Below the pieces are notes generated by a model. It was not told the DNA's origin and did not search any database. It was given only the letters and a program-made list of their open reading frames with translations. DNA of 61,747 nucleotides from a virus (taxonomy: Duplodnaviria; Heunggongvirae; Uroviricota; Caudoviricetes): positions 104,932-166,678 of the IMG/VR virus record IMGVR_UViG_3300021400_000113. One strand, written 5' to 3'. Both the position numbers and the translations under genes were made by a program. Below are positions 48,592-61,747 of the stretch, in pieces; within the stretch, counting starts at the first letter, position 1, and each line of letters begins with the position of its first letter.

Positions 48592-48794
48592 GTATTTGGG
48601 GGATAGTTCAAAATTTTTCGGGTGAGAGATGATTGGGACGGGGCCTATTGTTCGGATTTGTCGTTTTTGGTTTTCCCGTATACATGCCCCCGGTACTGGC
48701 GTCCTATTTTTGTGCAGGTCGTACAGAAAAGCGCTGGCTTTTTGTGCACTATGCCGAACCTTCAAATTTTCCCGCGAAAAAGCGAAAAAAGGGC

Positions 48795-48822
48795 TTGCAA
48801 TTCCCGCGGGGTGTGGTATAAT
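48795..48822 (+). promoter_or_regulatory. rightward promoter for the 48917 gene
   Basis: TTGCAA-16 bp-TATAAT with extended TG; no palindrome upstream. Confidence 0.6.
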
Positions 48823-48916
48823 ACAGATGTTCCCGGGAGGACGGGCAGCCAGCGACGATATGAGCGGGCCGATACCTGCGGGATACACCATAACTATATT
48901 ATAGGAGGGATTCACC

Positions 48917-49510: not shown

Positions 49511-49569
49511 CAGGAACAGCGGGGGCAGGGCGCGAGCCCTGCCCCAGCAAAAGAATGGAGGAAAGACCC

Positions 49570-49704
49570 ATGAAGTATGAAGTCATTTTCAACCCTGTGC
49601 GCAAGCTGTATTGCGTATGGGGAGTCGGCACCCGTGGTGCCGAGCTGGTAAAGACTTTCAAGACTGAAAGCGCCGCAAAACGCTGGATAGTAAGCAAGGG
49701 CTGA
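49570..49704 (+). CDS. 44-aa hypothetical protein
   Basis: GGAGG RBS; MKYEVIFNPVRKLYCVWG... Confidence 0.55.
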   Translation: MKYEVIFNPVRKLYCVWGVGTRGAELVKTFKTESAAKRWIVSKG

Positions 49705-49748
49705 AAAGCCCTTGCAAGCAAGACAAGCTGAAAGAGGAGGAAAACAAA

Positions 49749-49943
49749 ATGACCACCATTATCGTAACTTTTAACCTGGACGAGACCGCGACCATTCTAT
49801 GGGCTGACGCTGAAAACACCTATATTCGCCGCACGACCCACGCAATCGATGCTATGAAATGGATGGCAAAACAGGGGCTGGAGTTTACATGGACGAAAAC
49901 AGAAGATGGACTGGAGCAGGCAATTTGGGAAAAGGCGCAATGA
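49749..49943 (+). CDS. hypothetical protein (64 aa)
   Basis: GAGGAGG RBS; TGA in the hairpin AAAAGGCGC-aatga-GCGCCTTTT. Confidence 0.7.
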   Translation: MTTIIVTFNLDETATILWADAENTYIRRTTHAIDAMKWMAKQGLEFTWTKTEDGLEQAIWEKAQ

Positions 49944-49956
49944 GCGCCTTTTCTTT

Positions 49957-50038
49957 TTATATGTCAGGCATCTAAACTTAGATGCATGGCATCTAAATTT
50001 AGATGTTGAACATCTAAATTTAGATGTTGGACATCTAA
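49957..50038. repeat. four tandem copies (21-bp period) of the 19-bp palindrome
   Basis: TTATATGTCAGGCATCTAA, TTAGATGCATGGCATCTAA, TTAGATGTTGAACATCTAA, TTAGATGTTGGACATCTAA separated by 2 bp. Confidence 0.9.
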
Positions 50039-50119
50039 ATAATCCCCTTGACAGCATAAATGCTATGTGCTATAATGGTACCATCAAGAAGGGATAGAAT
50101 CCCAAGAGGAGGTATTTCC

Positions 50120-50383
50120 ATGTCTACTATCACCGCTCGTGACTTCGCGCGTCCCGTCGTCGTCCTGCCCAACCGTAAAGCCGTTATTCGTGCGCTGGCA
50201 GCTGGGCGTACTGTATGGTGCGCTGAAACTGGTGAAGGCTGGCAGCTGGGAGAGGGCTGGGATCGGGCCTCTCTTAGCTTTACCTTTCCCGGTTCTTCTT
50301 TGAACCGCGCTCGGCACCTTGCCAGTCATATCTTTGCCGAAGAAGAGCGAAAAAATTTCTTCTTCGGGAGCGGCGTAAAATAA
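50120..50383 (+). CDS. cassette ORF, hypothetical (87 aa)
   Basis: Own palindrome and promoter; GAGGAGG RBS. Confidence 0.7.
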   Translation: MSTITARDFARPVVVLPNRKAVIRALAAGRTVWCAETGEGWQLGEGWDRASLSFTFPGSSLNRARHLASHIFAEEERKNFFFGSGVK

Positions 50384-50483
50384 TACGCCCTTCATAACTT
50401 AGATGTCAAACATCTAAATTCCATTATTGACAACTTAAATTTTTCATGTTATAATTAGGTATCAAATGAAGGAGGAAGGAACC

Positions 50484-50735
50484 ATGAACGTCTATTCCAA
50501 GTATTGCCACATCGAAATGAACATGCGCAAGGGACAGGTTTACAGCGCGCGGATGTACACCGCGATTGAAACGAAAGCAGGCGAAAAAGAGTACTGGAAA
50601 ACACTGACAGCAGCTGAAGCTGGACGCGCGATGCGCAAGCTGCAGAAAGCGACAGGCATTAAGCCAACAATCGGATACAACATGTTTGATGCAAGCCTTA
50701 CCAATAAAGAGATTATCTATTACTGGGAGAAATAA
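50484..50735 (+). CDS. cassette ORF, hypothetical (83 aa)
   Basis: Own palindrome and promoter; stop codon in hairpin. Confidence 0.7.
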   Translation: MNVYSKYCHIEMNMRKGQVYSARMYTAIETKAGEKEYWKTLTAAEAGRAMRKLQKATGIKPTIGYNMFDASLTNKEIIYYWEK

Positions 50736-50836
50736 TTCTCCCTTCAGTATTTAGATGTTCAACATCTAAATAATACTATTGCTTTTTTTAATAATCTATG
50801 TTATAATAGACCCATCAAAGAAAGGGAGGCAAGACA

Positions 50837-51148
50837 ATGATTAAAGTAATCGAACAGGTTATGAACCTTAAAGAATCCGAAGGGCTTACCATTAAAAACT
50901 ATCAGTCTATCAATTATAAATCCGGATGGCAAGTAGCCGATTATGGTGTGAAATGTTATAACATACAAGAAGCAATTATTACAATTGCAAAATATAAAGG
51001 TACTTGCGGCGTATGGTTGGAAAATGGTATATACTATATTGACCATAGTTTCCGCGTGAATACCAAAAAAGAAGCACTTGCAATCGGACGCGTAAATAAC
51101 CAAATTTCAATTTTGAAATGGAAAAATAAATCTTTGGTTTACTGCTAA
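50837..51148 (+). CDS. cassette ORF, hypothetical (103 aa)
   Basis: Own palindrome and promoter; GGGAGG RBS. Confidence 0.7.
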   Translation: MIKVIEQVMNLKESEGLTIKNYQSINYKSGWQVADYGVKCYNIQEAIITIAKYKGTCGVWLENGIYYIDHSFRVNTKKEALAIGRVNNQISILKWKNKSLVYC

Positions 51149-51248
51149 GCAGTAATCCCAAAACTTAGATGTTAGACATCTATATTTTAATATTGACATT
51201 TTATTAAAAATATGTTACAATTTTATTGAAAGAAAGGAGAGGAAAAAC

Positions 51249-51323
51249 ATGACAATCGTAATTATCGGATTCTGGGCGTTGATTTCCTTCTTGTATCTCC
51301 ATCACGTAATTTCAGAGCGCTAA
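51249..51323 (+). CDS. 24-aa hydrophobic micropeptide
   Basis: MTIVIIGFWALISFLYLHHVISER; own palindrome, promoter, AGGAGAGG RBS, stop in a perfect 10-bp hairpin. Confidence 0.7.
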   Translation: MTIVIIGFWALISFLYLHHVISER

Positions 51324-51429
51324 GCGCTCTGAATAATTTAGATGTTGAACATCTAAAATCTCCTATTGACAACCGCGCCTTATCATGTTATAATAAGGTA
51401 TCAAAAGAAAGAAAGGAAGGAATTTCAAA

Positions 51430-51597
51430 ATGAAACAATATTATTGGATGCATAAGGAACATGGTTATCTTGTCCCGGAATCTAACCTCTATGAAGATGC
51501 GGTTGCCATGGAGCTGGACGATATTACAGATCCTACCAGCGTTGAGTATCTCAATTTCAGTTTGTATTATCACAAAACGCACTTGTTGGTTTTATAA
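51430..51597 (+). CDS. cassette ORF, hypothetical (55 aa)
   Basis: MKQYYWMHKEHGYL...; stop in GTTGGTT-ttata-AACCAAC. Confidence 0.65.
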   Translation: MKQYYWMHKEHGYLVPESNLYEDAVAMELDDITDPTSVEYLNFSLYYHKTHLLVL

Positions 51598-51717
51598 ACC
51601 AACTTCCCGAAACTTAGATGTTTGACATCTAAATTCAACTATTGACAATTTCATTTTTATTTAGTATAATTTACTTGTAAAAAAGAACGGGAGAAGAATC
51701 CCGAAACTAAGGAGGAA

Positions 51718-51957
51718 ATGGGCATGACTATTAAGAAGGAAAAAAACTTAAAAGAATTTGAATTTTGGGGACCCGCGCAGCGAATTGCCGATCTTTTACT
51801 GAATGAAGAATTTGATGCAATCGAGCAACACCTTGAAGAGCTTTATCCGGAAGGAATTGGAGAAACAGAACTTAATGACTTGTTTGCATATTATACAGAT
51901 TTCGTTTTGGAAATTATTGGAAAAACCGAAGAAGAAATTCTCGCGCGGGATAGTTAA
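51718..51957 (+). CDS. cassette ORF, acidic hypothetical (79 aa)
   Basis: AAGGAGG RBS; FEFWGPA..TELNDLF. Confidence 0.7.
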   Translation: MGMTIKKEKNLKEFEFWGPAQRIADLLLNEEFDAIEQHLEELYPEGIGETELNDLFAYYTDFVLEIIGKTEEEILARDS

Positions 51958-52115
51958 ACCTACCCCGTACAGATTTGGGAAGAATTTTGCCTCATCATAG
52001 AATGAGGCAAAAAGGTTTTAGATGTTGAACATCTAAAATATACTATTGACATTTTTATTTCTTTCATATATAATATAATTGTTCTAAGGAACAAAAGAGT
52101 GAAGGAGAGAAAATC

Positions 52116-52334
52116 ATGAGAAAGTTTGAAGTTGGTAAAGTATATTTGCGTCCCGGTTTGTTTATTCCTTCCTTTTGGGTAAAAATCATTGAACGCACCG
52201 AAGAAACTATTACCTTTGAAGAGCTGGAATATCCCAGCAGCTCAATAGAATATTCTGTTGAACATGACGAAGCTGGAAATGAAGTCGTGAAAGCATGGGA
52301 ATACTATAATGAAATTGGATACATGAGGGCATAA
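52116..52334 (+). CDS. cassette ORF, hypothetical (72 aa)
   Basis: MRKFEVGKVY...; stop in GAGGGC-ataa-GCCCTC. Confidence 0.7.
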   Translation: MRKFEVGKVYLRPGLFIPSFWVKIIERTEETITFEELEYPSSSIEYSVEHDEAGNEVVKAWEYYNEIGYMRA

Positions 52335-52438
52335 GCCCTCTTTTTATTTTAGATGTTGAACATCTAAAATAAACTATTGACTTCAATTTCATTTTATGTT
52401 ATACTGTACACGTCAAAAGGAAGAAGGGAGGGTTGAAA

Positions 52439-52592
52439 ATGGAAACTCCACCCGGTTAGAGTAAGCCAGTCTTGTAAGGGGCTTTACAAGAGCGGCAATA
52501 TTACGCGAGCGTCCCGCCGCGTTGCAGCCTTCGGCAAGCTGGACGTATGTAATTTGGCCGAGCTGGATAAGTGCGCAATTATCCAGCTTTTT
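52439..52592 (+). ncRNA. candidate structured RNA cassette with a 12-codon mini-ORF
   Basis: Behind palindrome and promoter; ATG GAA ACT CCA CCC GGT TAG AGT AAG CCA GTC TTG TAA followed by several GC-rich hairpins and a terminator AGCTGGATAA..TTATCCAGCT-Tn. Confidence 0.4.
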
Positions 52593-52683
52593 TCTTTTAG
52601 ATGTTCAACATCTAAATCTCACTCTTGACTTTTCTCTTTCTCTATGGTATACTTATCTCAGAAAAAAGAAAGGAGTTGCTACC

Positions 52684-52989
52684 ATGGAAATGTCCCATCA
52701 CTGCCAGTATGAGCGCGCGAACCGCGTGCAGCATATCATCAACGAGATCGGTTTAGGACAAATTGTCAAAGAGAAATTCACCCACAGCTGCTATACCTGC
52801 ATCACAGATACTGGTATCACCATCATCAAAAGCGCTGACAAGCTGACAATTGTGACCATGTATGTCACCACCTATCGCGAGCTGGTAGCAGTATATGAAG
52901 GAACGAAAAAAATTCCTTCATATCTCAAAAAGAAAGTTGACCGCAATCAAACTTTTTTCACTCACGAAGGAAAAACAATTTGGGCATAA
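52684..52989 (+). CDS. cassette ORF, hypothetical (101 aa)
   Basis: AAAGGAG RBS; MEMSHHCQYERANR..; the track start at 52522 is an upstream artefact. Confidence 0.7.
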   Translation: MEMSHHCQYERANRVQHIINEIGLGQIVKEKFTHSCYTCITDTGITIIKSADKLTIVTMYVTTYRELVAVYEGTKKIPSYLKKKVDRNQTFFTHEGKTIWA

Positions 52990-53092
52990 TGCCCAAATTT
53001 ATGTTTTAGATGTTAAACATCTAAAACATAGCCTTGACTTATTAAATATTTTATGCTATAATCTTATTGTAAAAAGAAAGGGGTTGAGCAGA

Positions 53093-53308
53093 ATGTACGA
53101 AGATTTGTGCGAACAGGGCTTTGATTTTGGTTTTGTAAAATTCATGGAAGAAATGTATGGTGATGATCGCCCTTCCATGCTGATAATCAACAAAATGCAT
53201 CTGGCCTATCTCAGAGGACATAACGCCGGAATATACTTAGGTCTTAAATTCGGACGAGAAGAAGGGTATGAGAGCGGTGTAGCAGTCGCGCATCTTGGGA
53301 TTGAATAA
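53093..53308 (+). CDS. cassette ORF, hypothetical (71 aa)
   Basis: Start placed downstream of the cassette promoter. Confidence 0.6.
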   Translation: MYEDLCEQGFDFGFVKFMEEMYGDDRPSMLIINKMHLAYLRGHNAGIYLGLKFGREEGYESGVAVAHLGIE

Positions 53309-53446
53309 CGCGGGGAACCGCGTTATTTTTCTTTTAGATGTTAAACATCTAAATCTAATTCTTGACCTTTTACAAAATTCATGATATACTATTCACGTAA
53401 TCAAGGGAAGGAAAACCCACCAAACCAGAGAGGAAGATTTGAAACT

Positions 53447-53782
53447 ATGAAGAACGCTACTATCAAGACCATCTATGCTATCCTGACTGGCGAGAACACC
53501 AACGAAGCCGACAAGCTGACCTGCATCCGCGAGCTGGAAGATGAGTTTGCTAAGGCCGCAGAAAAGGCGTCTGCGAAGCAGGATACCTACGACACGATGC
53601 GCGTCGTGGTATTGAACATTCTGAATGACAAGCCTATGACGGTCGCGGAAATCTTCACCGCGGGCGAAGGTGATTGGCCCGAAGGCACCACGAAGAACAA
53701 GATTTCTTACGGCCTGACCCACTACTGGGAAAATGAAGTCGTTAAAATTCAGGGCAAGGTAAACGAATACCGCCGGAAGTAA
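53447..53782 (+). CDS. putative winged-helix DNA-binding protein, paralog 1
   Basis: ..KPMTVAEIF..EGTTKNKISYGLTHYWENEVVKIQGKVNEY; similar to the 57845 and 61008 ORFs. Confidence 0.65.
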   Translation: MKNATIKTIYAILTGENTNEADKLTCIRELEDEFAKAAEKASAKQDTYDTMRVVVLNILNDKPMTVAEIFTAGEGDWPEGTTKNKISYGLTHYWENEVVKIQGKVNEYRRK

Positions 53783-53928
53783 TTTTTAACCGCCCTTCGG
53801 GGTGGTTTTCTTTTATTTTAGAAATTAGATGTTAAACATCTAACTTTAAAACTTGACATTTCATTCTTAAAATGATATAATTTATTTGTAAAAAAGATAG
53901 GGAATTAAATTCCCGGAAGGAGACAGAT

Positions 53929-54102
53929 ATGTACGTTTTAACCACTATGTATGATGATGGATTTACTAAGGCAGAAACTTGCAATGATATTACAGAAGTA
54001 TTTAGCGCCGCCGCGATTTACCTTCAAGACAGAGAATGCACAGGCGTTCTTTGCTTAGACCTTGAAACAAAAGAATTTATCATTGACTTCACGCGGCGTT
54101 AA
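53929..54102 (+). CDS. cassette ORF, hypothetical (57 aa)
   Basis: AAGGAG RBS; stop in GCGGCGT-ta-ATGCCGC. Confidence 0.65.
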   Translation: MYVLTTMYDDGFTKAETCNDITEVFSAAAIYLQDRECTGVLCLDLETKEFIIDFTRR

Positions 54103-54210
54103 TGCCGCGCTTATTGTTTTAGATGTTAAACATCTAAAACTTATTATTGACTTTTTTATTATAATATGTTAATATATACTCGTAAATTGAAAAAGGAAGG
54201 CGATGCCAAT

Positions 54211-54609
54211 ATGGAAATTAGATTGGCAACTATCAACGATATGGAAGAAATTAGAACCATTGACACCAATATCCCATATATTTCCTCTTTACTCTTAATG
54301 GGAGATATTCAAGCTGGACGCCTATATATTGGGGTAGAAGCTGATAAAATTGTTTCCACTTGCGCCGCTGTTCCTGAACCTTATTATAATTATACCGCGA
54401 TGAAGCGATTGTATGTTGATCCAAATTACCGTGGCAAGGGATACGCCCAGCAAATGATTGAACACATCAGCGATCAATATAATGAAGAAAAAATCGGCGC
54501 GACCCCATGGATTACTAATGGAGCAATGCGGCATACATTAGAAAAAGAAGGGTTCACGCTTGAATATATTTTCAATGAGAAATGGTGTTTTTATTCTAAG
54601 CAAGTCTAA
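54211..54609 (+). CDS. GNAT acetyltransferase
   Basis: MEIRLAT..D..; LYVDPNYRGKGYA acetyl-CoA motif; N..M..LEKEGF. Confidence 0.85.
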   Translation: MEIRLATINDMEEIRTIDTNIPYISSLLLMGDIQAGRLYIGVEADKIVSTCAAVPEPYYNYTAMKRLYVDPNYRGKGYAQQMIEHISDQYNEEKIGATPWITNGAMRHTLEKEGFTLEYIFNEKWCFYSKQV

Positions 54610-54720
54610 GGACTTGCTTTTATATTTAAATGTTAAACATCTAATTATAAATATTGACTTTTTAATACTATTATGTTAATATATAATTGTTCCAAGGGTA
54701 TAAAGAAAGGAGAGAAAAAT

Positions 54721-55167
54721 ATGAGCTTATGGGCACCACAATATCCACATTCTGAAAATTATTCTCCCGCAAAACTTGACGCGCACTTCCCTGGCTTATA
54801 CTTTTTAGGAAAGCATGAGATTTGGAATGGAAAAGATATATATATAATAAAAGTAGGAGAAGCATCTGACATAGGAAAAAGGATGAAAAGTTATTTGTCA
54901 CATTCTCCATTTTTTTGTGATGTTTGTTATGTATTTAATACAAGTAAATACAATGAAAAAACCAGAAAAGATTTTGAACTAAATTGCCATTTATATACCG
55001 GTATAAATACCCTTGCTACCGCCGCAGGTTCACAAGAATGGTTTTTTGTTACAAAAGAACAATATGAATATTTTTGTAAATGTTTTTCTGACCCCGATGC
55101 TTTTTATACAGTATGCGTAAAAGGCCGTGAAATGGCAAGGCGTAAAAGTGTAATTGCTCTTAACTAA
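54721..55167 (+). CDS. GIY-YIG-like (T5orf172-type) protein
   Basis: PGLYFL..IKVGEASDIGKRMKSY..FE...H..GSQEWF. Confidence 0.6.
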   Translation: MSLWAPQYPHSENYSPAKLDAHFPGLYFLGKHEIWNGKDIYIIKVGEASDIGKRMKSYLSHSPFFCDVCYVFNTSKYNEKTRKDFELNCHLYTGINTLATAAGSQEWFFVTKEQYEYFCKCFSDPDAFYTVCVKGREMARRKSVIALN

Positions 55168-55294
55168 TAGAGCAATTATATTTAGATGTTAAACATCTAA
55201 TAATTATAATTGACAATTTCATTTTCTTATGCTATAATCCTATTGTAAGAACGAAAGGGAAAGGAAAATCCCAAAAACCAGAAAGGAAACTAAA

Positions 55295-55483
55295 ATGGAA
55301 AATAATAAAAACAATACTCGCGGTGGCATCGGATTCTGCGGACTTCTGACGATTGCTTTTATTATCCTTAAATTGTGCAACGTCATTACATGGTCGTGGC
55401 TTTGGGTTCTGTCCCCGCTTTGGATTAGCTTTATCCTCATCGTTTTGATTCTTCTGATTACTTTGTTATGGGCAAGCCGTTAA
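55295..55483 (+). CDS. small membrane protein (62 aa)
   Basis: GGIGFCGLLTIAFIILKL..ITWSWLWVLSPLWI; two hydrophobic segments. Confidence 0.8.
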   Translation: MENNKNNTRGGIGFCGLLTIAFIILKLCNVITWSWLWVLSPLWISFILIVLILLITLLWASR

Positions 55484-55586
55484 GGCTTCCCAATCTATTT
55501 AGATGTTAAACATCTAAATTCTTCCCTTGACTTCTTCATCATTCTATGATATACTATACCCATCAAAGGAAAGGACGGGACGAACG

Positions 55587-56036
55587 ATGAAAACGATTTG
55601 GTTTGACATGGACGGCACTTTGGGCAATCTGTACGCGGTTGAAGGTTGGCTTTCTATGCTCCGCACCTATGACCCCACACCCTACGCAGAAGCTGAAGTC
55701 ATGCTGAATATGAGCCTGCTCGCGCGCTATCTAAATCGCTTGCAGGAAGCTGGATACCAGATTGGAATTATCAGCTGGCTTTCCAAGTGCCCCACCCCGG
55801 AATATGATGAAGCTGTAACCGCGGCGAAGCTGGTATGGCTGAAAAAGCACCTGCGGTCGGTAAGCTGGGACGCCATCCGCATTGTGGCCTATGGTACGCC
55901 TAAATCTTCCTTCATGAAAAATGAGGATGATATTCTGTTTGACGATGAAGCGCCGAACCGTGAAGAATGGAAGGGCGAAGCGTATGAACCTAACCAAATT
56001 TTGGAAGTTCTGAAAGGACTTTTGAAGGGTGAGTAA
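55587..56036 (+). CDS. HAD-superfamily phosphatase (5'(3')-nucleotidase-like)
   Basis: IWFDMDGTL motif I, IISWL, ILFDD motif IV. Confidence 0.8.
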   Translation: MKTIWFDMDGTLGNLYAVEGWLSMLRTYDPTPYAEAEVMLNMSLLARYLNRLQEAGYQIGIISWLSKCPTPEYDEAVTAAKLVWLKKHLRSVSWDAIRIVAYGTPKSSFMKNEDDILFDDEAPNREEWKGEAYEPNQILEVLKGLLKGE

Positions 56037-56131
56037 TCACCCTTTATTGTTTAGATGTTAAACATCTAAAATTAACTATTGACTTTTCTTTTATAATATG
56101 ATAATATACTTACGAAAGGAAGGGAAGTAAA

Positions 56132-56335
56132 ATGATTAAGGTAACAGTTGAAATCCAGTATTATCCAATCTATGAAGCATATAGTCGTGCGCGTGGTATC
56201 TTGTTCCATCTTTTTGGTGGCGGTTGGCGTAGAAGTTATACCGACAAAATCACCGGCAAAGAAATGATGGAGTATAGAGTATGGGGAAAAGACGTGGAAT
56301 TTTTACGCCTCATGTGCGCCGAATTGCCATTTTAA
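56132..56335 (+). CDS. cassette ORF, hypothetical (67 aa)
   Basis: Own promoter; stop in hairpin. Confidence 0.65.
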   Translation: MIKVTVEIQYYPIYEAYSRARGILFHLFGGGWRRSYTDKITGKEMMEYRVWGKDVEFLRLMCAELPF

Positions 56336-56461
56336 TGGCAATTTATGATTATAGATGTTAAACATCTAAAAATAAAACTTGTATTTTATTTTATTTTATG
56401 ATATAATAATCCCGTAAGAAAGAGAGAAGGAAAACTCCTAAAAACCAGAAAGGATAAAAAT

Positions 56462-56716
56462 ATGTTGTATGTAGTTATCCATCATTATTCTTTTGAAGAA
56501 GATGCAGACGCGAACGATTATCTGATTGGGGTTTTTGATACCCCGGAGGCCGCATTTCAAGCGCGAGAAGAATATTTTTCAAATTATTCAGAAATTCAAA
56601 ATGGCATTCACTCTATTTCTATTACCCCAGTAAAACTTAATACATATAATGATGATCTTGAATGTAATGTCCCTTGGTTAAATTGTAATAATGAATGGGA
56701 GGAAGAGGAGATTTAA
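56462..56716 (+). CDS. cassette ORF, acidic hypothetical (84 aa)
   Basis: Own promoter; stop in an 11-bp hairpin. Confidence 0.7.
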   Translation: MLYVVIHHYSFEEDADANDYLIGVFDTPEAAFQAREEYFSNYSEIQNGIHSISITPVKLNTYNDDLECNVPWLNCNNEWEEEEI

Positions 56717-56833
56717 TCTCCTCTTTTAATTTTAGATGTTTAACATCTAAATTCAATCTTGACATTTTATTATCTTCATGATATACTATATCCATAGGTG
56801 AAGGAAAACACCACAAACCAGAAAGGCACCCGT

Positions 56834-57592
56834 ATGGCTTATATGGTATTCGATACTGAAACGACTTCTCTCGACAAGCCCTTCTGCTATGATGTAGGGT
56901 ATTCTATTTTCAATGATGAAATTGATGTACCTCTCACGCGCCGTCATTTCATCGTCGAACAAGTTTGGCACAACTTACCGCTATTTGAGAGTGCTTACTA
57001 CAAAGAAAAGCGCCCTTTATATATCGGCCTAATGCGGTCTAAAAAGGCCGTCATGGACAAATGGGGCTATATTATGCGAACAATTCGGCGTGATATTGTT
57101 CAATATGAAGTGACCGATGCTTACGCCTATAACAGCGATTTTGACGACAAAGTTTTTACTTTTAATTGTGACTGGTTCAAATGTAATAATCCTTTGGAAG
57201 ATATTCCTATTCATGACATTTGGGGCTATGCTTCCGAATTTATCACAAGCACACAAGCATATAAAGACTTCTGCGAAGAACACCAGTATTTTACAGATAG
57301 CGGAAACTATAAAGCAAGCGCCGAAATTGTATACAGATACCTTACAAAAGATAATGACTTTGAAGAAGCGCACATGGGCGCGTATGATGTGGATATTGAA
57401 AGTAAAATTTTGGAAGCTTGTGTTGGTATAGGGGCAGAATATGGTAAAGATTACAAAGTTGTAAAAATCTTACAACGTCCGCGCCTTACGCCTTACACCG
57501 TGAAAGTCAATGGAAAAATTATCCATCAAGGCGAATACGTAAAAAAATATGCGCGTGACGGATTGTATAGCTTTACAGAAATGGGAGAATAA
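56834..57592 (+). CDS. DEDD-family 3'-5' exonuclease
   Basis: MVFDTETT, AYNSDFD, EEAHMGAYDV. Confidence 0.85.
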   Translation: MAYMVFDTETTSLDKPFCYDVGYSIFNDEIDVPLTRRHFIVEQVWHNLPLFESAYYKEKRPLYIGLMRSKKAVMDKWGYIMRTIRRDIVQYEVTDAYAYNSDFDDKVFTFNCDWFKCNNPLEDIPIHDIWGYASEFITSTQAYKDFCEEHQYFTDSGNYKASAEIVYRYLTKDNDFEEAHMGAYDVDIESKILEACVGIGAEYGKDYKVVKILQRPRLTPYTVKVNGKIIHQGEYVKKYARDGLYSFTEMGE

Positions 57593-57682
57593 TCTCCCAT
57601 TTCTTTCCAATTTTTGTTTTAGATGTTAAACATCTAAATCCAATGCTTGACCTTTTCTTAAAGTTATGCTATACTATAATCG

Positions 57683-57758
57683 TTCCAAGGGAGAGAGTAG
57701 TAGAAAGTGAACTAATGGTCAGCCCATAGGGAACTGAATCGTGAAATTTCTCTTGGAA
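57683..57758 (+). ncRNA. candidate 76-nt small RNA cassette
   Basis: Follows palindrome and promoter, no ORF; ends pair (TTCCAAGGGAGA / TTTCTCTTGGAA, 12 bp with GU); internal TAGT/ACTA and TCAG-CCC..GGG-CTGA stems. Confidence 0.45.
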
Positions 57759-57844
57759 AACCTCTTGACATTAAGCACAAACTGTGCTATAATGAATACA
57801 TGAAAAGGACAAGGAAAAGTCCTAAAAACCAGAAAGGAAAGTAT

Positions 57845-58168
57845 ATGAAGAAGAACACCATGATCACCATCGCCGCTTACATCAAGAACGTTCCCGAACT
57901 CGCCACCGAATATGCCGAACTCCAAGCCGAACTGGACAAGAACGCCGAAAAGGCCCAGGCCAACCGCGATCTGTACGCCGCCGCGCATGACGTGGTAATC
58001 AACGCCCTGTCCGACAAGCCCGTGACGCTTGCAGAACTGTGGGAAACCGTAAAGAACACCGTTCCCGAAGGAATGAGCAAGAGCAAGGTACAGTATGCTC
58101 TGCGCGAACTGTGGGCCGCCGAAGTCGTTAAGATTGAAGGCAAGGTCAACGAATACAAGAGAGCGTAA
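57845..58168 (+). CDS. putative winged-helix DNA-binding protein, paralog 2
   Basis: KPVTLAELW..EGMSKSKVQYALRELWAAEVVKIEGKVNEY; own TTGACA/TATAAT promoter. Confidence 0.65.
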   Translation: MKKNTMITIAAYIKNVPELATEYAELQAELDKNAEKAQANRDLYAAAHDVVINALSDKPVTLAELWETVKNTVPEGMSKSKVQYALRELWAAEVVKIEGKVNEYKRA

Positions 58169-58304
58169 GCCCTCTTTTTTCTTAGCTTCTTTTAGATGTT
58201 TAACATCTAATTTATTCTGTTGACATTTCATTTTCAATATGATATACTTTATTCGTAAAGAAAAAGGAGAAGGAAAACTTCTAAAAACCAGAAAGGGAAT
58301 GAAA

Positions 58305-58574
58305 ATGACGATTTACAAGGTGGTTCGTGGAAGTTCTTACAATGATAATGAGGAAGAAATTTTTTTCACTTCCCGGGATAAAGCAATTGGGTATATTATC
58401 GGACGTTATGCAGAAAGCAAAGAAAAACCCCGTGGAAGAGAGAAGCGGCCCGACTGGTGGAATGGAAGTTTTTGTTATACCGCAGAAAAACTATTTAATC
58501 TTAGAAATTGGAATAAATATTATTACTTAATGAACTGCGGTTTTTTCTATATTGAAGCAATCAATGTATTATAA
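58305..58574 (+). CDS. cassette ORF, hypothetical (89 aa)
   Basis: Own palindrome and promoter; alternative ATG at 58299. Confidence 0.65.
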   Translation: MTIYKVVRGSSYNDNEEEIFFTSRDKAIGYIIGRYAESKEKPRGREKRPDWWNGSFCYTAEKLFNLRNWNKYYYLMNCGFFYIEAINVL

Positions 58575-58757
58575 GGGCATTGGCCCTTATAATATTTAGA
58601 TGTTAAACATCTAATTTCATTTTCACATAATTATACAAAATTCTGTATAAAAATTTTTTCAAATTATCCCGAAAAAATACTTGACAATTTTCTAAAATTA
58701 TGTTATACTCTATATGAAAAGTGAAGGAAAACACCAAACCAGAAAGAAGGATGAAAA

Positions 58758-59156
58758 ATGGGTAAAGAAGCAAGCCGTAATGAAATGAAAAACGAACTCC
58801 TGTCCACCATTCAGCCCATTCTGTCCGCCCAGCTAAACTCTGATGTTTTGCGCGTGGGCCCCAGCGAAATTGCCATTCCAGGTGTAGACGCAGATGGAAA
58901 TGAATTTTTCTATCTGGTAAAGATTTCCATTCCTCGTGGTTCACGGGATGGCAATGGTAGCTATGATGCTTATGACGGGTATGCCGAAGCAGAAGTATAT
59001 GAAGCAACCTTAAAAACTCGCGAAGCCGAGAAGGCCGCGAAAGAAGCAAAAAAAGCCGCCGCCGAAAAAGAAAAGGAACGCAAGCGCGAAGCAAAGAAAG
59101 TTGTAAAAGAACTAAATGAAAAGGGACTGAAAGGAATGATTAAGAGCGCGGAATAA
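58758..59156 (+). CDS. hypothetical protein with K/A/E-rich C-terminal helix (132 aa)
   Basis: Track ORF with RBS; related in layout to the 59883 ORF. Confidence 0.75.
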   Translation: MGKEASRNEMKNELLSTIQPILSAQLNSDVLRVGPSEIAIPGVDADGNEFFYLVKISIPRGSRDGNGSYDAYDGYAEAEVYEATLKTREAEKAAKEAKKAAAEKEKERKREAKKVVKELNEKGLKGMIKSAE

Positions 59157-59203
59157 CCGCGCTTTTCCTTTTTAGATGTTAAACATCTAAATATAAAAGA
59201 CCC

Positions 59204-59701
59204 TTACGGGTCAAAGGCATAATCAACAATGACGGGCTTATTATCTTTCCATCCATAGTTGTGATAGTGTAAATCGCAAGCAACGTTACAAATATATTCA
59301 AATTCATCTCCCGTAAGAGCCTTGGCAAAATCTCTATGACTTCCAATATTCTTAATGCGTGGCATAATATAGAAAGTGATATTATGAGAAACTACCGGAG
59401 TAATTTTAGCAAACAGATAAGCATAGCCGTCTTTTTCTGCCTGTGCATACTTGCGCACTTCATCCGGGCAATTTCCTGCCCAGCAATCTTCGTTATAATC
59501 ATACTTAATAACATAATCCGCCCGAATCACCGCCCAGCGGGAAACGCCATTACGAACCTGTACCCGCTCATGCTTTTTATCGCAATAATTGAACAGCGCA
59601 TCGGCCAGATCTTCGGGGTCATCCAGAAACTTTTCAATCACCGGGAAAATTTCTTCAAGGAACTTTTGAGCGCGTACAGTGTAATCAGTTTTCATTTTCA
59701 T
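59204..59701 (-). CDS. minimal protein-kinase-like protein (inverted cassette)
   Basis: NGVSRWAV (Gly-loop-like), YVIK (ATP Lys), DEVRKY (alphaC Glu), DLHYHNYG (catalytic loop), IVDY (Mg-binding); own leftward promoter at 59726-59754. Confidence 0.7.
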   Translation of the reverse strand: MKMKTDYTVRAQKFLEEIFPVIEKFLDDPEDLADALFNYCDKKHERVQVRNGVSRWAVIRADYVIKYDYNEDCWAGNCPDEVRKYAQAEKDGYAYLFAKITPVVSHNITFYIMPRIKNIGSHRDFAKALTGDEFEYICNVACDLHYHNYGWKDNKPVIVDYAFDP

Positions 59702-59882
59702 GACCCCTTTCTTTATTACGGTTACATTATAACATAAGATAACCGAAAAAGCAACCCCTTATTTTTAGATGTTAAACATCTAAAATCAATAGTTGACTTT
59801 TTCTTAAATCCATGATATACTTATACCGTAATCAAGAGAAGGAAAACTCTTAAAAACCAGAAGGGAAGTATGAATTATGCCT

Positions 59883-60206
59883 ATGAACGCCACCGAAATG
59901 AAGAACGCCGCCCGCAACGCCACTATTTCTGCCATGCGTGATGCTCTGGAAGACCAGTCCGCTGTCCAGTTCGCGGATGCCTCCTGGGCTATTCTCCAGA
60001 ACATTGAAGGTCAGGAAATCTGGTGCGAAGTAACCATTAAGACCAAGGCTTACAAGCCTACCAAGACCGCCGAAGCCTTCGATCCCTTTGAGGCCGCGGA
60101 AGCGTGGAAGGAAGAAAAGCGCATCAAGGCCGAAGAAAAGGCCGCGAAGGAAGCGGAAAAGGCCAAGAAAGTGGCCAAGGCAAAGGAAAAGAAGGAGGAG
60201 GAGTAA
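59883..60206 (+). CDS. hypothetical protein with K/A/E-rich C-terminal helix
   Basis: High-GC codons; alternative start at 59877; stop in GGAGGAG-taa-TCCTCTCC. Confidence 0.75.
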   Translation: MNATEMKNAARNATISAMRDALEDQSAVQFADASWAILQNIEGQEIWCEVTIKTKAYKPTKTAEAFDPFEAAEAWKEEKRIKAEEKAAKEAEKAKKVAKAKEKKEEE

Positions 60207-60308
60207 TCCTCTCCTTTTTACTTAGATGTTTAACATCTAAAATATAATATTGACATTTCTTTTATTCTATGTTATACTCTATACATCAAAAGAAAGGAAG
60301 TGCTAAGT

Positions 60309-60608
60309 ATGGTCGGATACTCTAATGGAACCATTCCCTTCAATCATGGTCAACTATGCCAGATGCTTCGCTCCGCAAATGATGAAGAACTGGCTAATAT
60401 TCTCAATGATGTTAGCAAGGAGCAGGAACGGCGCAAGGCGGCAAAGAAAAACGAATATCTCAATAATATCCGCAAGGCTATTTCTGAAGCGATTAAAGCG
60501 GGATATAGTGTTGACTTCTATTACAATTCCGATTCCGAAGGTTCCGCCTTCTCCATTCACAGCAACAATGAATTTGTTTATGATATTGAATTATTCACCG
60601 ACGATTAA
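60309..60608 (+). CDS. cassette ORF, hypothetical (99 aa)
   Basis: Own palindrome and promoter; AAAGGAAG RBS. Confidence 0.65.
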   Translation: MVGYSNGTIPFNHGQLCQMLRSANDEELANILNDVSKEQERRKAAKKNEYLNNIRKAISEAIKAGYSVDFYYNSDSEGSAFSIHSNNEFVYDIELFTDD

Positions 60609-60695
60609 GTGGCTTCAGCCACTTTCCTATTTTAGATGTTTAACATCTAAATCTAAGTGTTGACTTCTTTCTAAATTTATGATATTATATAATTG

Positions 60696-60800
60696 TTCCA
60701 AGGGAGAGGAAAAGAACAGCAAGCGCTACGATTCCTTAAAGGATAGTCATTAAAATGCGCAAGCAAAAACAAACCTCACTTGCAAGTCCTTTGGGATAAT
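60696..60800 (+). ncRNA. candidate small RNA/leader sharing its 5' end with the 57683 RNA
   Basis: Begins TTCCAAGGGAGAG; can pair with TCCTTTGGGA near 60788-60797; no ORF. Confidence 0.3.
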
Positions 60801-60802
60801 TT

Positions 60803-60893
60803 GGGAAAGTAGCTCAATTGGTCAGAGCTTGATCGCGTGAAGGGATAGAGCGATTGAATGCCCTTGATGTTGGTTCGACTCCAACCTTTCCCA
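60803..60893 (+). tRNA. tRNA-like RNA with a non-canonical anticodon arm (pseudo-tRNA; no anticodon assignable)
   Basis: Acceptor GGGAAAG/CTTTCCC-A; D arm GCTC-AATTGGTCA-GAGC; T arm GTTGG-TTCGACT-CCAAC; the 40-nt central region lacks a 7-nt YUNNNRN loop. Confidence 0.7.
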
Positions 60894-61007
60894 ATCGTAA
60901 CAAAAACTTAACAAAATTTCTTCTTGACAAACTTCAAAATCCATGATATAATAAATGCGTAAATAAGAGAAGGAAAACTCTAAAAAACCAGAAAGGATTT
61001 AACCGCT

Positions 61008-61349
61008 ATGAAGAAAACCTCTTACGAAGCCATTTACAACGCTCTGACCGCCATCAACTACGACAATGCCGAAGTCATGGAAGACCTCTGCAAGGAACTG
61101 AACCGCGGCGCCGAAGCCAAGGCGAAGAAAGCGTCTGAATACGATCAGGCGAAGCCCTTCGTATTTGAAGCCCTGCGCGTGGCAGGCAAGCCCGTGACCG
61201 TTGCGGAAATCTTCGAGCATTGTGAGAACGAACTGCCCGAAGGCTTCACCAAAGCCCGCATCCAGTACGGCCTGTCCCATCAGTGGGCGGAAGAAGTCGT
61301 CAAGACCGAAGGCAAAGTTAATTCCTACCAGTTGAAGGAAGGGGCGTAA
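61008..61349 (+). CDS. putative winged-helix DNA-binding protein, paralog 3
   Basis: KPVTVAEIF..EGFTKARIQYGLSHQWAEEVVKTEGKVNSY; own TTGACA/TATAAT promoter. Confidence 0.65.
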   Translation: MKKTSYEAIYNALTAINYDNAEVMEDLCKELNRGAEAKAKKASEYDQAKPFVFEALRVAGKPVTVAEIFEHCENELPEGFTKARIQYGLSHQWAEEVVKTEGKVNSYQLKEGA

Positions 61350-61481
61350 AGCCCTTTCTTTTTTTTGTTTTACTTTTAGATGTTAAACATCTAAATCTCC
61401 TTGTTGACTCTTTTCCTATTATATGATATACTCTATACATGAAGTGAAGGAAAACACTTGAAACCAGAAAGGGAAATGCTT

Positions 61482-61747
61482 ATGCGCAAAGAATACCGCT
61501 TCATGGTCACCGACACCGAGACCGCCACCCTGCCCTTCGCCAATGAAATCGCTAATGGCGACCCCGAAAAGAAAAAGAAAATCGCCATCGCGCGGCCTCT
61601 CGTGTATGACATCGGCTGGACTATCACCAACCGCAAGGGTGAAATCCTGGACAGCAAACAATTCCTTGTAGCCGAAACTTTCGCCGTTCCCGCCGTATTT
61701 AACACCGCGTATTATGCTGAAAAGCGCCCGCGGTATCTGGAAATGCT
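61482..61747 (+). CDS. second DEDD exonuclease-like protein (3' truncated)
   Basis: MRKEYRFMVTDTETAT..LVYDIGW..F.V.E.F...AYYAEKRPRY, parallel to the 56834 ORF (FDTETT..YDVGY..AYYKEKRPLY). Confidence 0.7.
   Translation, partial: MRKEYRFMVTDTETATLPFANEIANGDPEKKKKIAIARPLVYDIGWTITNRKGEILDSKQFLVAETFAVPAVFNTAYYAEKRPRYLEM

What the first reader, a model, noticed from the sequence alone, without database searches (positions are those of the whole stretch)
49957..61747. Array of about 27 self-contained expression cassettes, each headed by a 19-bp palindrome exactly 9 bp before the -35 box
Seen: 30 copies of TTAGATG-N5-CATCTAA (mostly TTAGATGTTAAACATCTAA) are confined to this 11.4 kb. At 24 of 27 loci the palindrome is followed by exactly 9 bp and a near-consensus promoter (TTGACA/TTGACT, about 17 bp, TGnTATAAT/TATACT); one locus has 8 bp and two are exceptions. 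A strong RBS follows, then one small ORF or small RNA, then a hairpin over the stop codon. The cargo is diverse: GNAT, HAD, DEDD exonucleases, kinase, membrane peptides, wHTH paralogs, a tRNA-like RNA. Known analogues are the T4 early promoter/stem-loop cassettes and the SPO1/T5 host-takeover regions, but I know of none described with a conserved dyad in fixed register on every promoter. Inference: the dyad, centred near -55, is the site of a dimeric protein that switches a whole early/host-takeover regulon, and/or a recombination site that lets cassettes be gained, lost and shuffled.
Basis: partly seen in the sequence, partly recalled or inferred. Interest (0 to 1): 0.92.

Follow-up and report, generated by a model that had tools for sequence, protein, structure and literature searches.

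The report
Operator-tagged early promoter cassette array
A large rumen phage places the same 19-base palindrome at a fixed distance upstream of nearly every promoter of its block of small early genes, which looks like one master switch for the block and also marks where relatives swap genes, but the protein that reads it is still unknown.

Summary
The window holds 30 copies of TTAGATG-N5-CATCTAA at 27 loci: 24 lie 9 bp from the -35 box, one lies 8 bp away, and two are exceptions.

The site is a perfect 19-bp palindrome, TTAGATGTT-N-AACATCTAA. The array runs over the record end, giving 38 sites in about 16 kb of a circularly assembled 166.6-kb phage that reads TAG as an amino acid.

- **One promoter class.** 23 of 26 strong sigma-A-type promoters in the array carry the dyad; none of 43 elsewhere does.
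- **Relatives.** Dozens of related rumen and gut phages have the same architecture with other palindromes (TTAGGTG, TTAGACG, TTCGTACG and more). The type changed at least 12 times on a marker tree.
- **Helical phase.** Non-default distances to the -35 box step by about 10 bp.
- **Cassette seams.** 63% of homology-block starts between relatives fall at a dyad edge, against 5% expected. One cassette occurs in both orientations.

Best reading: the operator of a dimeric regulator centred at -54, which also serves as a recombination seam. I could not identify the binder. AbrB, the wHTH paralogs, an Xre protein and a DtxR-like wHTH all failed presence or covariation tests, and no host regulon was found.

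The scan has noted the same kind of array in related phages before. It is a new variant of known kinds (PeSL, SPbeta SPBRE).

The parts
49957..61747 (+). Window part of the early-gene cassette array. The whole array is G000 154888 through the record end to 4330, with 38 dyads.
49957..50017 (.). Three extra dyads (49957, 49978, 49999) in tandem at 21-bp period, directly before the dyad of cassette 1. The first has 1 mismatch, and the centres of the first two are degenerate.
   Evidence: tandem run unique to this genome among those examined
50020..50398 (+). Cassette 1: dyad 50020-50038, 9 bp, -35 TTGACA 50048-53, -10 TATAAT 50071-76. ORF 50120-50383 (87 aa), a GC-rich orphan almost unshared with relatives (one 50%-identity hit).
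50399..50750 (+). Cassette 2: dyad 50399-50417, 9 bp, TTGACA/TATAAT. ORF 50484-50735 (83 aa), orphan.
50751..51164 (+). Cassette 3: dyad 50751-50769, 9 bp, weak -35 TTGCTT, TATAAT. ORF 50837-51148 (103 aa), a core family present in most relatives.
51165..51337 (+). Cassette 4: dyad 51165-51183 (1 mismatch), 9 bp, TTGACA/TACAAT. ORF 51249-51323, a 24-aa hydrophobic peptide.
51338..51613 (+). Cassette 5: dyad 51338-51356, 9 bp. ORF 51430-51597 (55 aa).
51614..52017 (+). Cassette 6: dyad 51614-51632, 9 bp. ORF 51718-51957 (79 aa).
52018..52348 (+). Cassette 7: dyad 52018-52036, 9 bp. ORF 52116-52334 (72 aa).
52349..52596 (+). Cassette 8: dyad 52349-52367, 9 bp, TTGACT/TATACT. The only ORF is a 6-codon frame ending in TAG. 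About 190 nt of GC-rich transcript follows, then a terminator. Candidate small RNA with no Rfam match.
52597..53005 (+). Cassette 9: dyad 52597-52615, 9 bp. ORF 52684-52989 (101 aa), a core family.
53006..53333 (+). Cassette 10: dyad 53006-53024, 9 bp. ORF 53093-53308 (71 aa).
53334..53824 (+). Cassette 11: dyad 53334-53352, 9 bp. Leader with AAACCAGAGAGG. ORF 53447-53782 (111 aa), coiled-coil plus winged-helix paralog.
53825..54118 (+). Cassette 12: dyad 53825-53843, 9 bp. ORF 53929-54102 (57 aa).
54119..54625 (+). Cassette 13: dyad 54119-54137, 9 bp. ORF 54211-54609 (132 aa), GNAT acetyltransferase.
   Evidence: PF13508 1.6e-10
54626..55181 (+). Cassette 14: dyad 54626-54644 (1 mismatch), 9 bp. 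ORF 54721-55167 (148 aa), weak T5orf172 match just below cut-off.
55182..55498 (+). Cassette 15: dyad 55182-55200, 9 bp. ORF 55295-55483 (62 aa), hydrophobic and probably membrane.
55499..56050 (+). Cassette 16: dyad 55499-55517, 9 bp. ORF 55587-56036 (149 aa), HAD-type 5'-3' deoxyribonucleotidase-like, a core family.
   Evidence: (phrog_2643 2.2e-10)
56051..56350 (+). Cassette 17: dyad 56051-56069, 9 bp. ORF 56132-56335 (67 aa).
56351..56731 (+). Cassette 18: dyad 56351-56369 (1 mismatch), 9 bp, weak -35 TTGTAT. ORF 56462-56716 (84 aa).
56732..57618 (+). Cassette 19: dyad 56732-56750, 8 bp (the one off-register locus). ORF 56834-57592 (252 aa), phrog_20187 of unknown function. This is the universal marker used for the tree.
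57619..58191 (+). Cassette 20: dyad 57619-57637, 9 bp. About 90-nt hairpin leader, then a second, dyad-less promoter at 57765-57793. ORF 57845-58168 (107 aa), winged-helix paralog (AF2 pLDDT 95.7).
58192..58595 (+). Cassette 21: dyad 58192-58210, 9 bp. ORF 58305-58574 (89 aa).
58596..59171 (+). Cassette 22 (exception): dyad 58596-58614, but the promoter lies 66 bp downstream (58681-58709). ORF 58758-59156 (132 aa), from the family with an IPRGxR motif and a K/E-rich tail.
59172..59764 (-). Cassette 23, inverted. It is bounded by dyads 59172-59190 and 59765-59783. The leftward promoter is TTGCTT 59754-59749 / TATAAT 59731-59726, 10 bp from the 59765 dyad. ORF 59204-59701 (165 aa, minus strand).
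   Evidence: found on + in 8 and on - in 7 relatives
59765..60221 (+). Cassette 24: dyad 59765-59783 serves both this rightward promoter (9 bp) and the leftward one of cassette 23. ORF 59877-60206 (109 aa), a paralog of the cassette-22 family.
60222..60631 (+). Cassette 25: dyad 60222-60240, 9 bp. ORF 60309-60608 (99 aa).
60632..61375 (+). Cassette 26: dyad 60632-60650, 9 bp. tRNA-Ser(UGA) at 60802-60894, then a second, dyad-less promoter at 60924. ORF 61008-61349 (113 aa), winged-helix paralog.
61376..61747 (+). Cassette 27: dyad 61376-61394, 9 bp. The ORF starts near 61458 and runs over the record end to G000 831 (about 330 aa), a second phrog_20187 paralog.

Best explanation
The 19-bp palindrome is the operator of a sequence-specific homodimeric DNA-binding protein. 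That protein sits on one face of the helix, centred at about -54, beside host sigma-A RNA polymerase at every early (host-takeover) promoter. The whole array of about 35 single-gene transcription units is therefore one regulon that can be switched together.

Because the promoters are already near-consensus, I think the switch is more likely a shut-off than an activation (about 60:40). Shut-off could work by holding RNAP at the promoter or by blocking alpha-CTD contacts, as phi29 p4 does at its strong early promoter.

I judge the protein more likely phage-encoded than host-encoded (about 2:1), because the operator sequence switches between closely related phages.

The same conserved dyad-promoter module is the longest identical stretch shared by all cassettes. 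It therefore also acts as the seam at which cassettes are gained, lost, reordered and inverted by recombination.

Shown: the anatomy, the restriction to one promoter class, the conservation and diversification in relatives, the helical phasing, and block boundaries at the module. Inferred: protein binding, its direction of action, who encodes it, and the recombination mechanism.
For: 1. 38 sites lie in one 16-kb array and none elsewhere in 166 kb. The array holds 26 strong sigma-A-type promoters, 23 with the dyad; the rest of the genome holds 43, none with it. About 3 such promoters are expected by chance.
2. Only the dyad, -35 and -10 are conserved. The 9-bp linker and the 17-bp spacer vary in sequence but not in length, so this is selection and not recent duplication.
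3. The palindrome works in either orientation. Minus-strand promoters at G000 3842 and 4312 have the same 9 bp. The dyad at 59765 serves divergent promoters at 9 and 10 bp.
4. In relatives, 633 type-A sites show 306 at 9 bp, 37 at 8 and 20 at 10, with minor peaks at about 19, 29 and 40. Type C peaks at 12, 23, 32 and 42. The non-default distances are in phase with the default at a 10-11 bp period (Rayleigh R 0.55-0.64, p 1e-7 to 1e-10).
5. Relatives found through a marker protein carry different palindromes in the same slot: TTAGGTG-N5, TTAGACG-N5, TTCGTACG-N5, TTACTGTA-N3, TTGGATG-N5 and TTAGATG-N6. Both arms always change together. The type changes at least 12 times on the marker tree, including between close pairs.
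6. No host regulon was found. A scan of 185,579 species genomes gave only chance singletons and short phage fragments. In 201 genomes of the family of the Acutalibacteraceae MAG G010 and 101 of its order, hits did not exceed the control.
7. Seam: 69 of 110 homology-block starts against 10 relatives lie 5-25 bp left of a dyad centre (4.7% expected), and 74 of 110 ends lie 5-75 bp right (15% expected). Order is rearranged. The cassette-23 family is on + in 8 relatives and on - in 7, and in this genome it is flanked by dyads.
Against: - No binding protein was identified, and every candidate tested failed.
  - AbrB (G000 3453-3755) is absent from three 93-100% complete type-A relatives.
  - No winged-helix paralog keeps one recognition helix across type-A phages, and orthologs in A, B and B4 phages have identical helices.
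  - The cassette-22 family shows no covariation or DNA-binding fold.
  - A DtxR-like wHTH (G000 98037-98396) has the same helix in an A and a B4 phage.
  - A 60-aa Xre protein is missing from this genome, and type-A phages carry two different helices.
  - No protein is shared by the A-type genomes G000, G001 and G004 while missing or divergent in their B4 relative.
- Some arrays mix half-site variants freely (G008 has TTAGATG and TTGGATG in all four combinations). That fits a tolerant reader but weakens the idea of strict specificity classes.
- One dyad-less relative has Rex-type boxes, so a host factor can apparently occupy early regions in this group.
- The phasing statistics count homologous sites in related phages, so the counts are not independent.
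- Block ends at the module are partly a BLAST artefact, because every cassette shares that module.
Confidence: 0.62

Rival explanations
1. The dyad is the operator of a host transcription factor, such as a global metabolic or metal regulator of the unknown Bacillota host. The phage copies it so that early expression reads host physiology, or so that the array titrates the factor. Different dyad types would reflect different hosts.
For: - No phage-encoded protein tracks the dyad type.
- The outer bases TTAG...CTAA recall DtxR/IdeR boxes, from my memory; type B shares TTAGGT...ACCTAA.
- A dyad-less relative carries three Rex-type boxes.
- Earlier notes of this scan report Rex and iron-repressor operators in early arrays of similar phages (not re-tested here).
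- The four tandem copies at 21-bp period at the array start would suit titration.
Against: - The exact 18-base consensus occurs in 185,579 species genomes only as chance singletons in unrelated taxa, or on short phage-like contigs.
- The MAGs that hold such fragments have no extra sites beyond the control.
- 201 genomes of the family of the Acutalibacteraceae MAG G010 show 6 hits against 6 control hits.
- 101 genomes of the same order show 1 hit for TTAGGT-N7-ACCTAA against 8 control hits.
- Operators of global regulators are conserved across genera, whereas here the type differs between close relatives and mixes within one array.
- The host is not known, so the right genomes may not have been searched.
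Confidence: 0.22
2. The dyad has no regulatory role. It is kept only as a recombination site or homology patch, or as the target of a dedicated recombinase or nuclease, that makes cassettes mobile in the way of PeSL or integron-like shuffling.
For: Block boundaries fall at the dyad-promoter module and order is rearranged. One cassette is inverted exactly between two palindromes and occurs in both orientations among relatives. A palindrome is the only sequence that offers homology in both orientations.
Against: - A pure recombination patch need not keep an exact 9-bp register and helical phase to the -35 box.
- It also need not be absent from all 43 other promoters.
- No recombinase gene was found in the array.
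- Contig-level read data showed no clean dyad-to-dyad junction.
Confidence: 0.08
3. The element acts as RNA or as DNA structure. It could be a hairpin in read-through transcripts that serves as a processing site, a back-up terminator or an insulator between cassettes, or it could be a cruciform or UP-like element.
For: It lies directly after each terminator T-tract. The arms co-vary between clades. Two RNA-library contigs from the source sample span a dyad, although DNA carry-over is not excluded.
Against: - The stem is short and AU-rich.
- Hybrid dyads in G008 occur in both A-C and G-U senses relative to the promoter.
- The element serves minus-strand promoters at the same distance.
- Helical phasing to the -35 box has no meaning for an RNA element.
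Confidence: 0.05

Closest known systems
PeSL (promoter-early stem-loop) cassettes of T4-type phages (Arbiol et al. 2010, PMC2839356)
   Same: Both are arrays of small, mostly orphan early genes, each with a strong host-type promoter and a stem-loop terminator. Recombination between the repeated regulatory modules shuffles the genes between relatives. Homology blocks here start and end at the module.
   Different: A PeSL has no separate palindromic operator in fixed register upstream of the -35 box. Here the terminator belongs to the preceding gene and encloses its stop codon. The host is a Gram-positive-type organism. Mini-circles were not shown here.
SPbeta repeated element (SPBRE) bound by the master repressor MrpR (Kohm et al. 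2023, PMC10516654)
   Same: One conserved element is repeated across a Firmicutes phage genome and read by one protein that controls the set.
   Different: SPbeta is temperate and the element maintains lysogeny. MrpR has a tyrosine-recombinase-like fold. No such protein was found here. The number of copies, the perfect palindrome and the exact -54 register are not features of SPBRE as far as I read.
SPO1 host-takeover module and its shut-off factors (summarised in PMC13401047)
   Same: A block of many small early genes is driven by strong sigma-A promoters with terminators, followed by a programmed shut-off of sigma-A transcription.
   Different: In SPO1 the shut-off factor Gp33 acts on RNA polymerase itself, not through a promoter-linked operator. 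SPO1 early promoters carry no common dyad that I know of (own knowledge).
phi29 p4 at the A2c/A3 promoters, and class I activator sites (CRP at -61.5/-72.5; B. subtilis CcpA at about -56 of ackA). Cited from own knowledge.
   Same: A dimer is bound upstream of the -35 box on a defined face of the helix and acts through RNA polymerase. Function is kept when the site moves by whole turns.
   Different: Those are single promoters, not about 35 copies. The binding protein and its effect are known there and unknown here.
Stoperators of cluster A mycobacteriophages (L5 gp71). Cited from own knowledge.
   Same: Dozens of copies of one repressor site are spread through a phage genome, and specificity differs between related phages.
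   Different: Stoperators are asymmetric 13-mers inside transcription units that stop elongation in lysogens. They are not palindromes in register with promoters.

Membership tests
PeSL-type mobile regulatory cassettes | Strong host sigma-70/sigma-A-type early promoter heading each small gene | tested here: met
   25 of 27 loci have a TTG-type -35 box, a 17-bp spacer and a TATAAT-like -10 box, mostly TG-extended. 26 strong promoters lie in 16 kb.
PeSL-type mobile regulatory cassettes | Stem-loop that terminates transcription next to the promoter | tested here: met
   A hairpin with a T-tract ends 27 of 30 cassette ORFs and lies just upstream of the next dyad. Terminator activity was not assayed.
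PeSL-type mobile regulatory cassettes | Indels and replacements between relatives have their junctions at the modules | tested here: met
   69 of 110 block starts and 74 of 110 block ends lie at the dyad-promoter module, against 4.7% and 15% expected.
PeSL-type mobile regulatory cassettes | Mini-circles formed by exchange between neighbouring modules | tested here: inconclusive
   Only contig-level data were available. Many short-sided joints appeared, none of them clean.
Repeated operator of one phage master regulator (SPBRE/MrpR-like) | One conserved element at many promoters of one gene class | tested here: met
   23 of 26 array promoters carry it, against 0 of 43 others.
Repeated operator of one phage master regulator (SPBRE/MrpR-like) | A phage-encoded protein that binds the element | tested here: not met
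   No candidate passed the presence and covariation tests. Binding itself cannot be tested with these tools.
Face-of-helix (class I-like) regulator site | Site centre at fixed positions that differ by whole helical turns | tested here: met
   Type A distances are 9, 19, 29 and 40 bp; type C distances are 12, 23, 32 and 42 bp. Rayleigh p is 1e-7 to 1e-10. The sites are not fully independent.
Face-of-helix (class I-like) regulator site | Effect on transcription that depends on the phase | not testable with these tools
   This needs reporter constructs with 5-bp and 10-bp shifts.
Host global-regulator operator (Rex, DtxR/IdeR, Fur type) | The same site occurs upstream of chromosomal genes in host genomes | tested here: not met
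   Searches found nothing above the control. The host is unknown, so the test is incomplete.
SPO1-type host-takeover module | Block of small early genes with their own sigma-A promoters and terminators, mostly orphans | tested here: met
   Of 38 cassette-region products scanned, only 2 have Pfam hits above cut-off, GNAT and AbrB/MazE. One more (HAD) has a named PHROG hit.
SPO1-type host-takeover module | Lies in a long terminal redundancy | tested here: inconclusive
   The record closes on a 107-bp overlap. Contig depths cannot show double coverage.

The most novel reading that the evidence does not exclude
The dyad and its unidentified reader form a fast-evolving operator-regulator pair private to each phage lineage. 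It would be a lytic-phage counterpart of immunity groups. Related phages co-infecting one cell could then switch only their own early regulon, or sabotage that of a same-type rival. The palindrome would at the same time be the crossover point that lets any cassette move or flip between genomes of the same type.
Probability: 0.2. Interest if true: 0.85.

Novelty: new variant of a known kind. Interest (0 to 1): 0.62.

Why it matters
If one protein reads this site, then about 35 host-takeover genes of a whole family of abundant rumen and gut phages are controlled by a single, easily testable switch. The phages are 110-190 kb, many read TAG as an amino acid, and the family holds at least eight natural specificity variants.

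That would give three things:
- a handle on how phages that recode a stop codon time their standard-code early genes;
- a set of orthogonal operator-promoter parts for Gram-positive and anaerobe synthetic biology;
- a concrete model of how regulatory modules double as seams for gene shuffling.

The cargo is almost entirely proteins of unknown function. The cassette structure says which of them are expressed first and independently.

Tried and rejected
**Binder candidates**
- AbrB/MazE-domain protein (G000 3453-3755, driven by a minus-strand dyad promoter). It is absent from G001-G003, which carry the same dyad.
- Winged-helix paralogs of cassettes 11, 20 and 26. The fold is a general ArsR/SmtB/MarR-like winged helix behind a long helix (weak E 0.02-0.1). 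However, orthologs in A, B and B4 phages share identical recognition helices, and no paralog is constant across type-A phages.
- Cassette-22/24/29 family. There is no covariation and no significant fold match. The best hits, anti-defence sponges Tad1 and Acb4, have E 0.25-0.5 and TM about 0.2 and are a lead only.
- Cassette-9 family. Its variation follows phylogeny only.
- DtxR-HTH-like 119-aa protein at G000 98037-98396. It has the same helix in an A and a B4 phage.
- 60-aa Xre protein of relatives. It looked promising: G004 (type A) is 72% identical to G001 and G007 but 39% to its close relative G006. However, G002 and G003 (type A) carry the other helix type, and G000 and G005 lack the gene.
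- Whole-proteome contrasts of seven genomes gave only shadow ORFs and an SPFH protein.
- Pfam on ten genes beyond the right-hand (G000-start) end of the array and ten next to or upstream of its left-hand start gave nothing relevant.

**Searches that found nothing**
- Megablast against 50,697 deposited phages gave no match.
- A full-text literature search for the motif found primers only.
- Rfam found nothing in the array beyond the tRNA.

**Read and contig data**
- Sequencing runs were available as contigs only. RNA-library contigs from the source sample lie on 8 cassettes at depth 2-12. Joints have 20-30-base sides at repeats. A loose end at 50021 matches the far end of the array, but only through the shared dyad. 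This gives no verdict on transcription starts, terminal redundancy or mini-circles.
- Tandem dyads as a marker of an autoregulated gene: the tandem run is unique to this genome and precedes an unshared orphan.

Full report
**Observation**

TTAGATG-N5-CATCTAA occurs 26 times exactly and 4 times with one mismatch between window 49957 and 61394. No good copy lies elsewhere in the window, and none is expected by chance.

- 27 loci, the first holding four dyads in tandem at 21-bp period;
- 24 loci with exactly 9 bp to the -35 box;
- one locus with 8 bp (56732);
- two exceptions (58596, whose promoter lies 66 bp downstream, and 59172).

All 25 promoters have a 17-bp spacer, and 23 of the 25 have a TG-extended -10 box. 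The 5-nt centre is TTNAA, so the element is a perfect 19-bp palindrome, TTAGATGTT-N-AACATCTAA.

A position profile shows that only the dyad, the -35 box and the -10 box are conserved. The 9-bp linker and the spacer keep their length but not their sequence. The stop codon lies inside the terminator hairpin in 27 of 30 cassette ORFs; 28 stops are TAA and 2 are TAG.

**Context**

The window is the last 61.7 kb of a 166,678-bp IMG/VR virus record that closes on a 107-bp overlap. The array runs over that junction to G000 4330, giving 38 dyads in about 16 kb and none elsewhere. At its far end two promoters point leftward, with the same 9 bp on the other side of the palindrome.

Outside the array the genome can be read only if TAG encodes an amino acid. 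Stop-free cover rises from 0.34 to 0.99 at 130-140 kb. There are 27 tRNA genes, one with anticodon CUA. Earlier notes of this scan reached the same reading. The array genes read in the standard code.

Genome-wide there are 69 strong sigma-A-type promoters, against about 3 expected. The array holds 26, of which 23 have the dyad. The other 43 have none. The dyad therefore defines one promoter class.

**Cargo**

Most products are orphans.

Supported:
- GNAT;
- a HAD-type 5'-3' deoxyribonucleotidase-like protein;
- tRNA-Ser(UGA);
- three paralogs of a coiled-coil plus winged-helix protein;
- three paralogs of a family with an IPRGxR motif and a K/E-rich tail;
- an AbrB/MazE-domain protein on the minus strand beyond the window.

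Not confirmed:
The N-terminal D-T-E motif is visible by eye only.
- I found no kinase.

**Relatives**

The exact dyad occurs on about 25 IMG/VR contigs of up to 189 kb. Five large relatives each hold 32-41 copies in one array.

Relatives fetched through the universal 252-aa marker of cassette 19 (56 loci, 44-92% identity) show the same architecture with other palindromes:
- TTAGGTG-N5-CACCTAA;
- TTAGACG-N5-CGTCTAA;
- TTCGTACG-N5-CGTACGAA;
- TTACTGTA-N3;
- TTGGATG-N5;
- TTAGATG-N6;
- TTAGGTG-N4;
- a few relatives with none.

On the marker tree the type changes at least 12 times, including between close pairs. G008 mixes TTAGATG and TTGGATG half-sites in all four combinations.

The distance to the -35 box is quantised:
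- Type A: 9 bp (306 sites), 8 (37) and 10 (20), then clusters near 19, 29 and 40.
- Type C: 12, 23, 31-33 and 42.
- Types A6, E and F behave likewise.

The non-default distances are in phase with the default at a 10-11 bp period (R 0.55-0.64, p 1e-7 to 1e-10). Homologous sites in related phages are not independent, so these values overstate the support.

**What this means**

Several features are those of an operator for a dimeric protein that acts together with RNA polymerase from one face of the helix:
- a perfect palindrome whose two arms change together;
- a fixed place centred at about -54;
- movement only by whole turns;
- service to promoters on either side;
- restriction to one promoter class.

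The promoters are near-consensus, so I favour a shut-off role of the phi29 p4 kind over activation. Nothing here decides that.

**Who binds**

I could not find the binder.

- AbrB is missing from three nearly complete type-A relatives.
- The winged-helix family has the right general fold, ArsR/SmtB/MarR-like at weak scores. But orthologs in A, B and B4 phages have identical recognition helices, and no paralog is constant among type-A phages, although their dyad is identical.
- The cassette-22 family, the cassette-9 family and a DtxR-like wHTH outside the array also fail.
- A 60-aa Xre protein looked right at first. G004 resembles other TTAGATG phages rather than its close relative G006. However, G002 and G003 (type A) carry the other helix, and this genome lacks the gene.
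- Whole-proteome contrasts of seven genomes found no type-A-specific protein.

**Host factor?**

The consensus occurs in 185,579 species genomes only as chance singletons, or on short phage-like contigs binned with Acutalibacteraceae, Oscillospiraceae and other Bacillota MAGs.

In 201 genomes of that family and 101 of that order, hits did not exceed the reversed-pattern control. Type switching between close relatives also argues against a conserved global regulator.

Against this:
- the host is unknown;
- one dyad-less relative has three Rex-type boxes;
- earlier notes of this scan report host-type operators in similar arrays.

I keep this rival at about 0.2.

**Recombination**

Cassette content is mosaic. 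Against ten relatives, 69 of 110 homology-block starts lie 5-25 bp left of a dyad centre (4.7% expected). 74 of 110 ends lie 5-75 bp right, which is the dyad edge or the end of the promoter (15% expected). On unique coordinates p is 1e-37 and 1e-28. Order is rearranged.

Part of this is expected, because every cassette shares the module. It still shows that the cassette, from dyad to dyad, is the unit of exchange, as with PeSLs.

The one minus-strand cassette of the window (59204-59701) is bounded by two dyads. Its family is found on + in 8 relatives and on - in 7, while nearly all other families keep one orientation. A palindrome is the only part of the module that is homologous to itself in both orientations, so this points to exchange within the dyad.

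No recombinase was found in the array, and the contig-level read data gave no clean junction.

**Comparison and novelty**

The nearest described systems are:
- PeSL cassettes (PMC2839356);
- the SPbeta repeated element with MrpR (PMC10516654);
- the SPO1 host-takeover module (PMC13401047);
- from my own knowledge, phi29 p4, class I activator sites and mycobacteriophage stoperators.

None combines a perfect palindrome in fixed helical register at about 35 promoters with lineage-specific variants. The motif itself is not in the searchable literature, and the phage has no close deposited relative.

This scan has already noted the same layout in related rumen and gut phages, so this window is a further, very clean member. 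I rate it a new variant of known kinds.

Noticed in passing
window 53422, 55275, 56442, 56815, 57826, 58285, 60985, 61461 (also G000 about 1530, 2000, 2360): A second conserved element sits in many 5' leaders: a small hairpin followed by AAACCAGARAGG, which runs into the ribosome-binding site. It occurs 8 times in the window against 0 expected. The source-sample assembly graph breaks at these repeats rather than at the dyads. It may be a leader stabiliser or a translation element.
   Followed up: partly
window 54690-54700, 57683-57770, 60696-60710: Three cassettes (14, 20, 26) start their transcripts with GTTCCAAGGGA. In cassette 20 this pairs with TTTCTCTTGGAA about 70 nt downstream, ahead of a second promoter, which suggests a small structured RNA.
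   Followed up: no
window 52349-52596: Cassette 8 has a full promoter, ribosome-binding site and terminator, but only a 6-codon frame that ends in TAG, followed by GC-rich sequence. It is either a small RNA or a peptide that is lengthened once TAG is read as an amino acid.
   Followed up: no
window 48000-50750: A GC-rich island (47.8% against 30-39% around it) covers the last genes before the array and cassettes 1-2. Its ORFs are almost unshared with relatives, so it is probably a recent acquisition.
   Followed up: partly
window 60802-60894: A 93-nt tRNA-Ser(UGA) has its own dyad promoter inside the early array. It duplicates the anticodon of a tRNA-Ser at G000 53363-53449 in the main tRNA cluster.
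   Followed up: no
G000 1219-1428 and 3204-3398 (L062): Two array ORFs end in TAG while 28 end in TAA. They would be read through once the suppressor tRNA is active.
   Followed up: no
G000 4330-4900 (L062): The non-coding stretch just past the last dyad is full of AAGCTGGAA/GCTGGAA repeats and AT-rich runs, with two dyad-less consensus promoters. It may be another control region at the border with a TAG-containing helicase gene (4886-6262, minus strand).
   Followed up: no
G000 3453-3755 (L062), minus strand: An AbrB/MazE-domain protein (PF04014, 2.5e-13) is driven by a leftward dyad promoter. It is present only in this phage's closest relatives.
   Followed up: yes
window 58758-59156, 59877-60206; G000 1556-1900: A three-paralog family is universal in these arrays. 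AF2 (pLDDT 89) gives a helix, a small sheet and a long K/E-rich helix. The weak best fold hits are the anti-defence sponges Tad1 and Acb4 (E 0.25-0.5), which is only a lead.
   Followed up: partly
G001 23082-23264, G004 126205-126387, G007 26440-26619, G006 141448-141636, G009 75413-75592: A 60-aa Xre-type HTH protein is conserved in most relatives, in two recognition-helix forms (SQEHLSR and SR[ST]HLNK). It is absent from this genome.
   Followed up: yes
L123 472-489, 734-772: A relative without the dyad carries three TTGTTAA-N4-TTAACAA (Rex-type) boxes in a repeat-rich non-coding stretch of its early region.
   Followed up: partly
window 38724-39059, minus strand: A 111-aa protein is conserved at 66-81% in all five complete relatives, in the TAG-containing late region. 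Its function is unknown.
   Followed up: no
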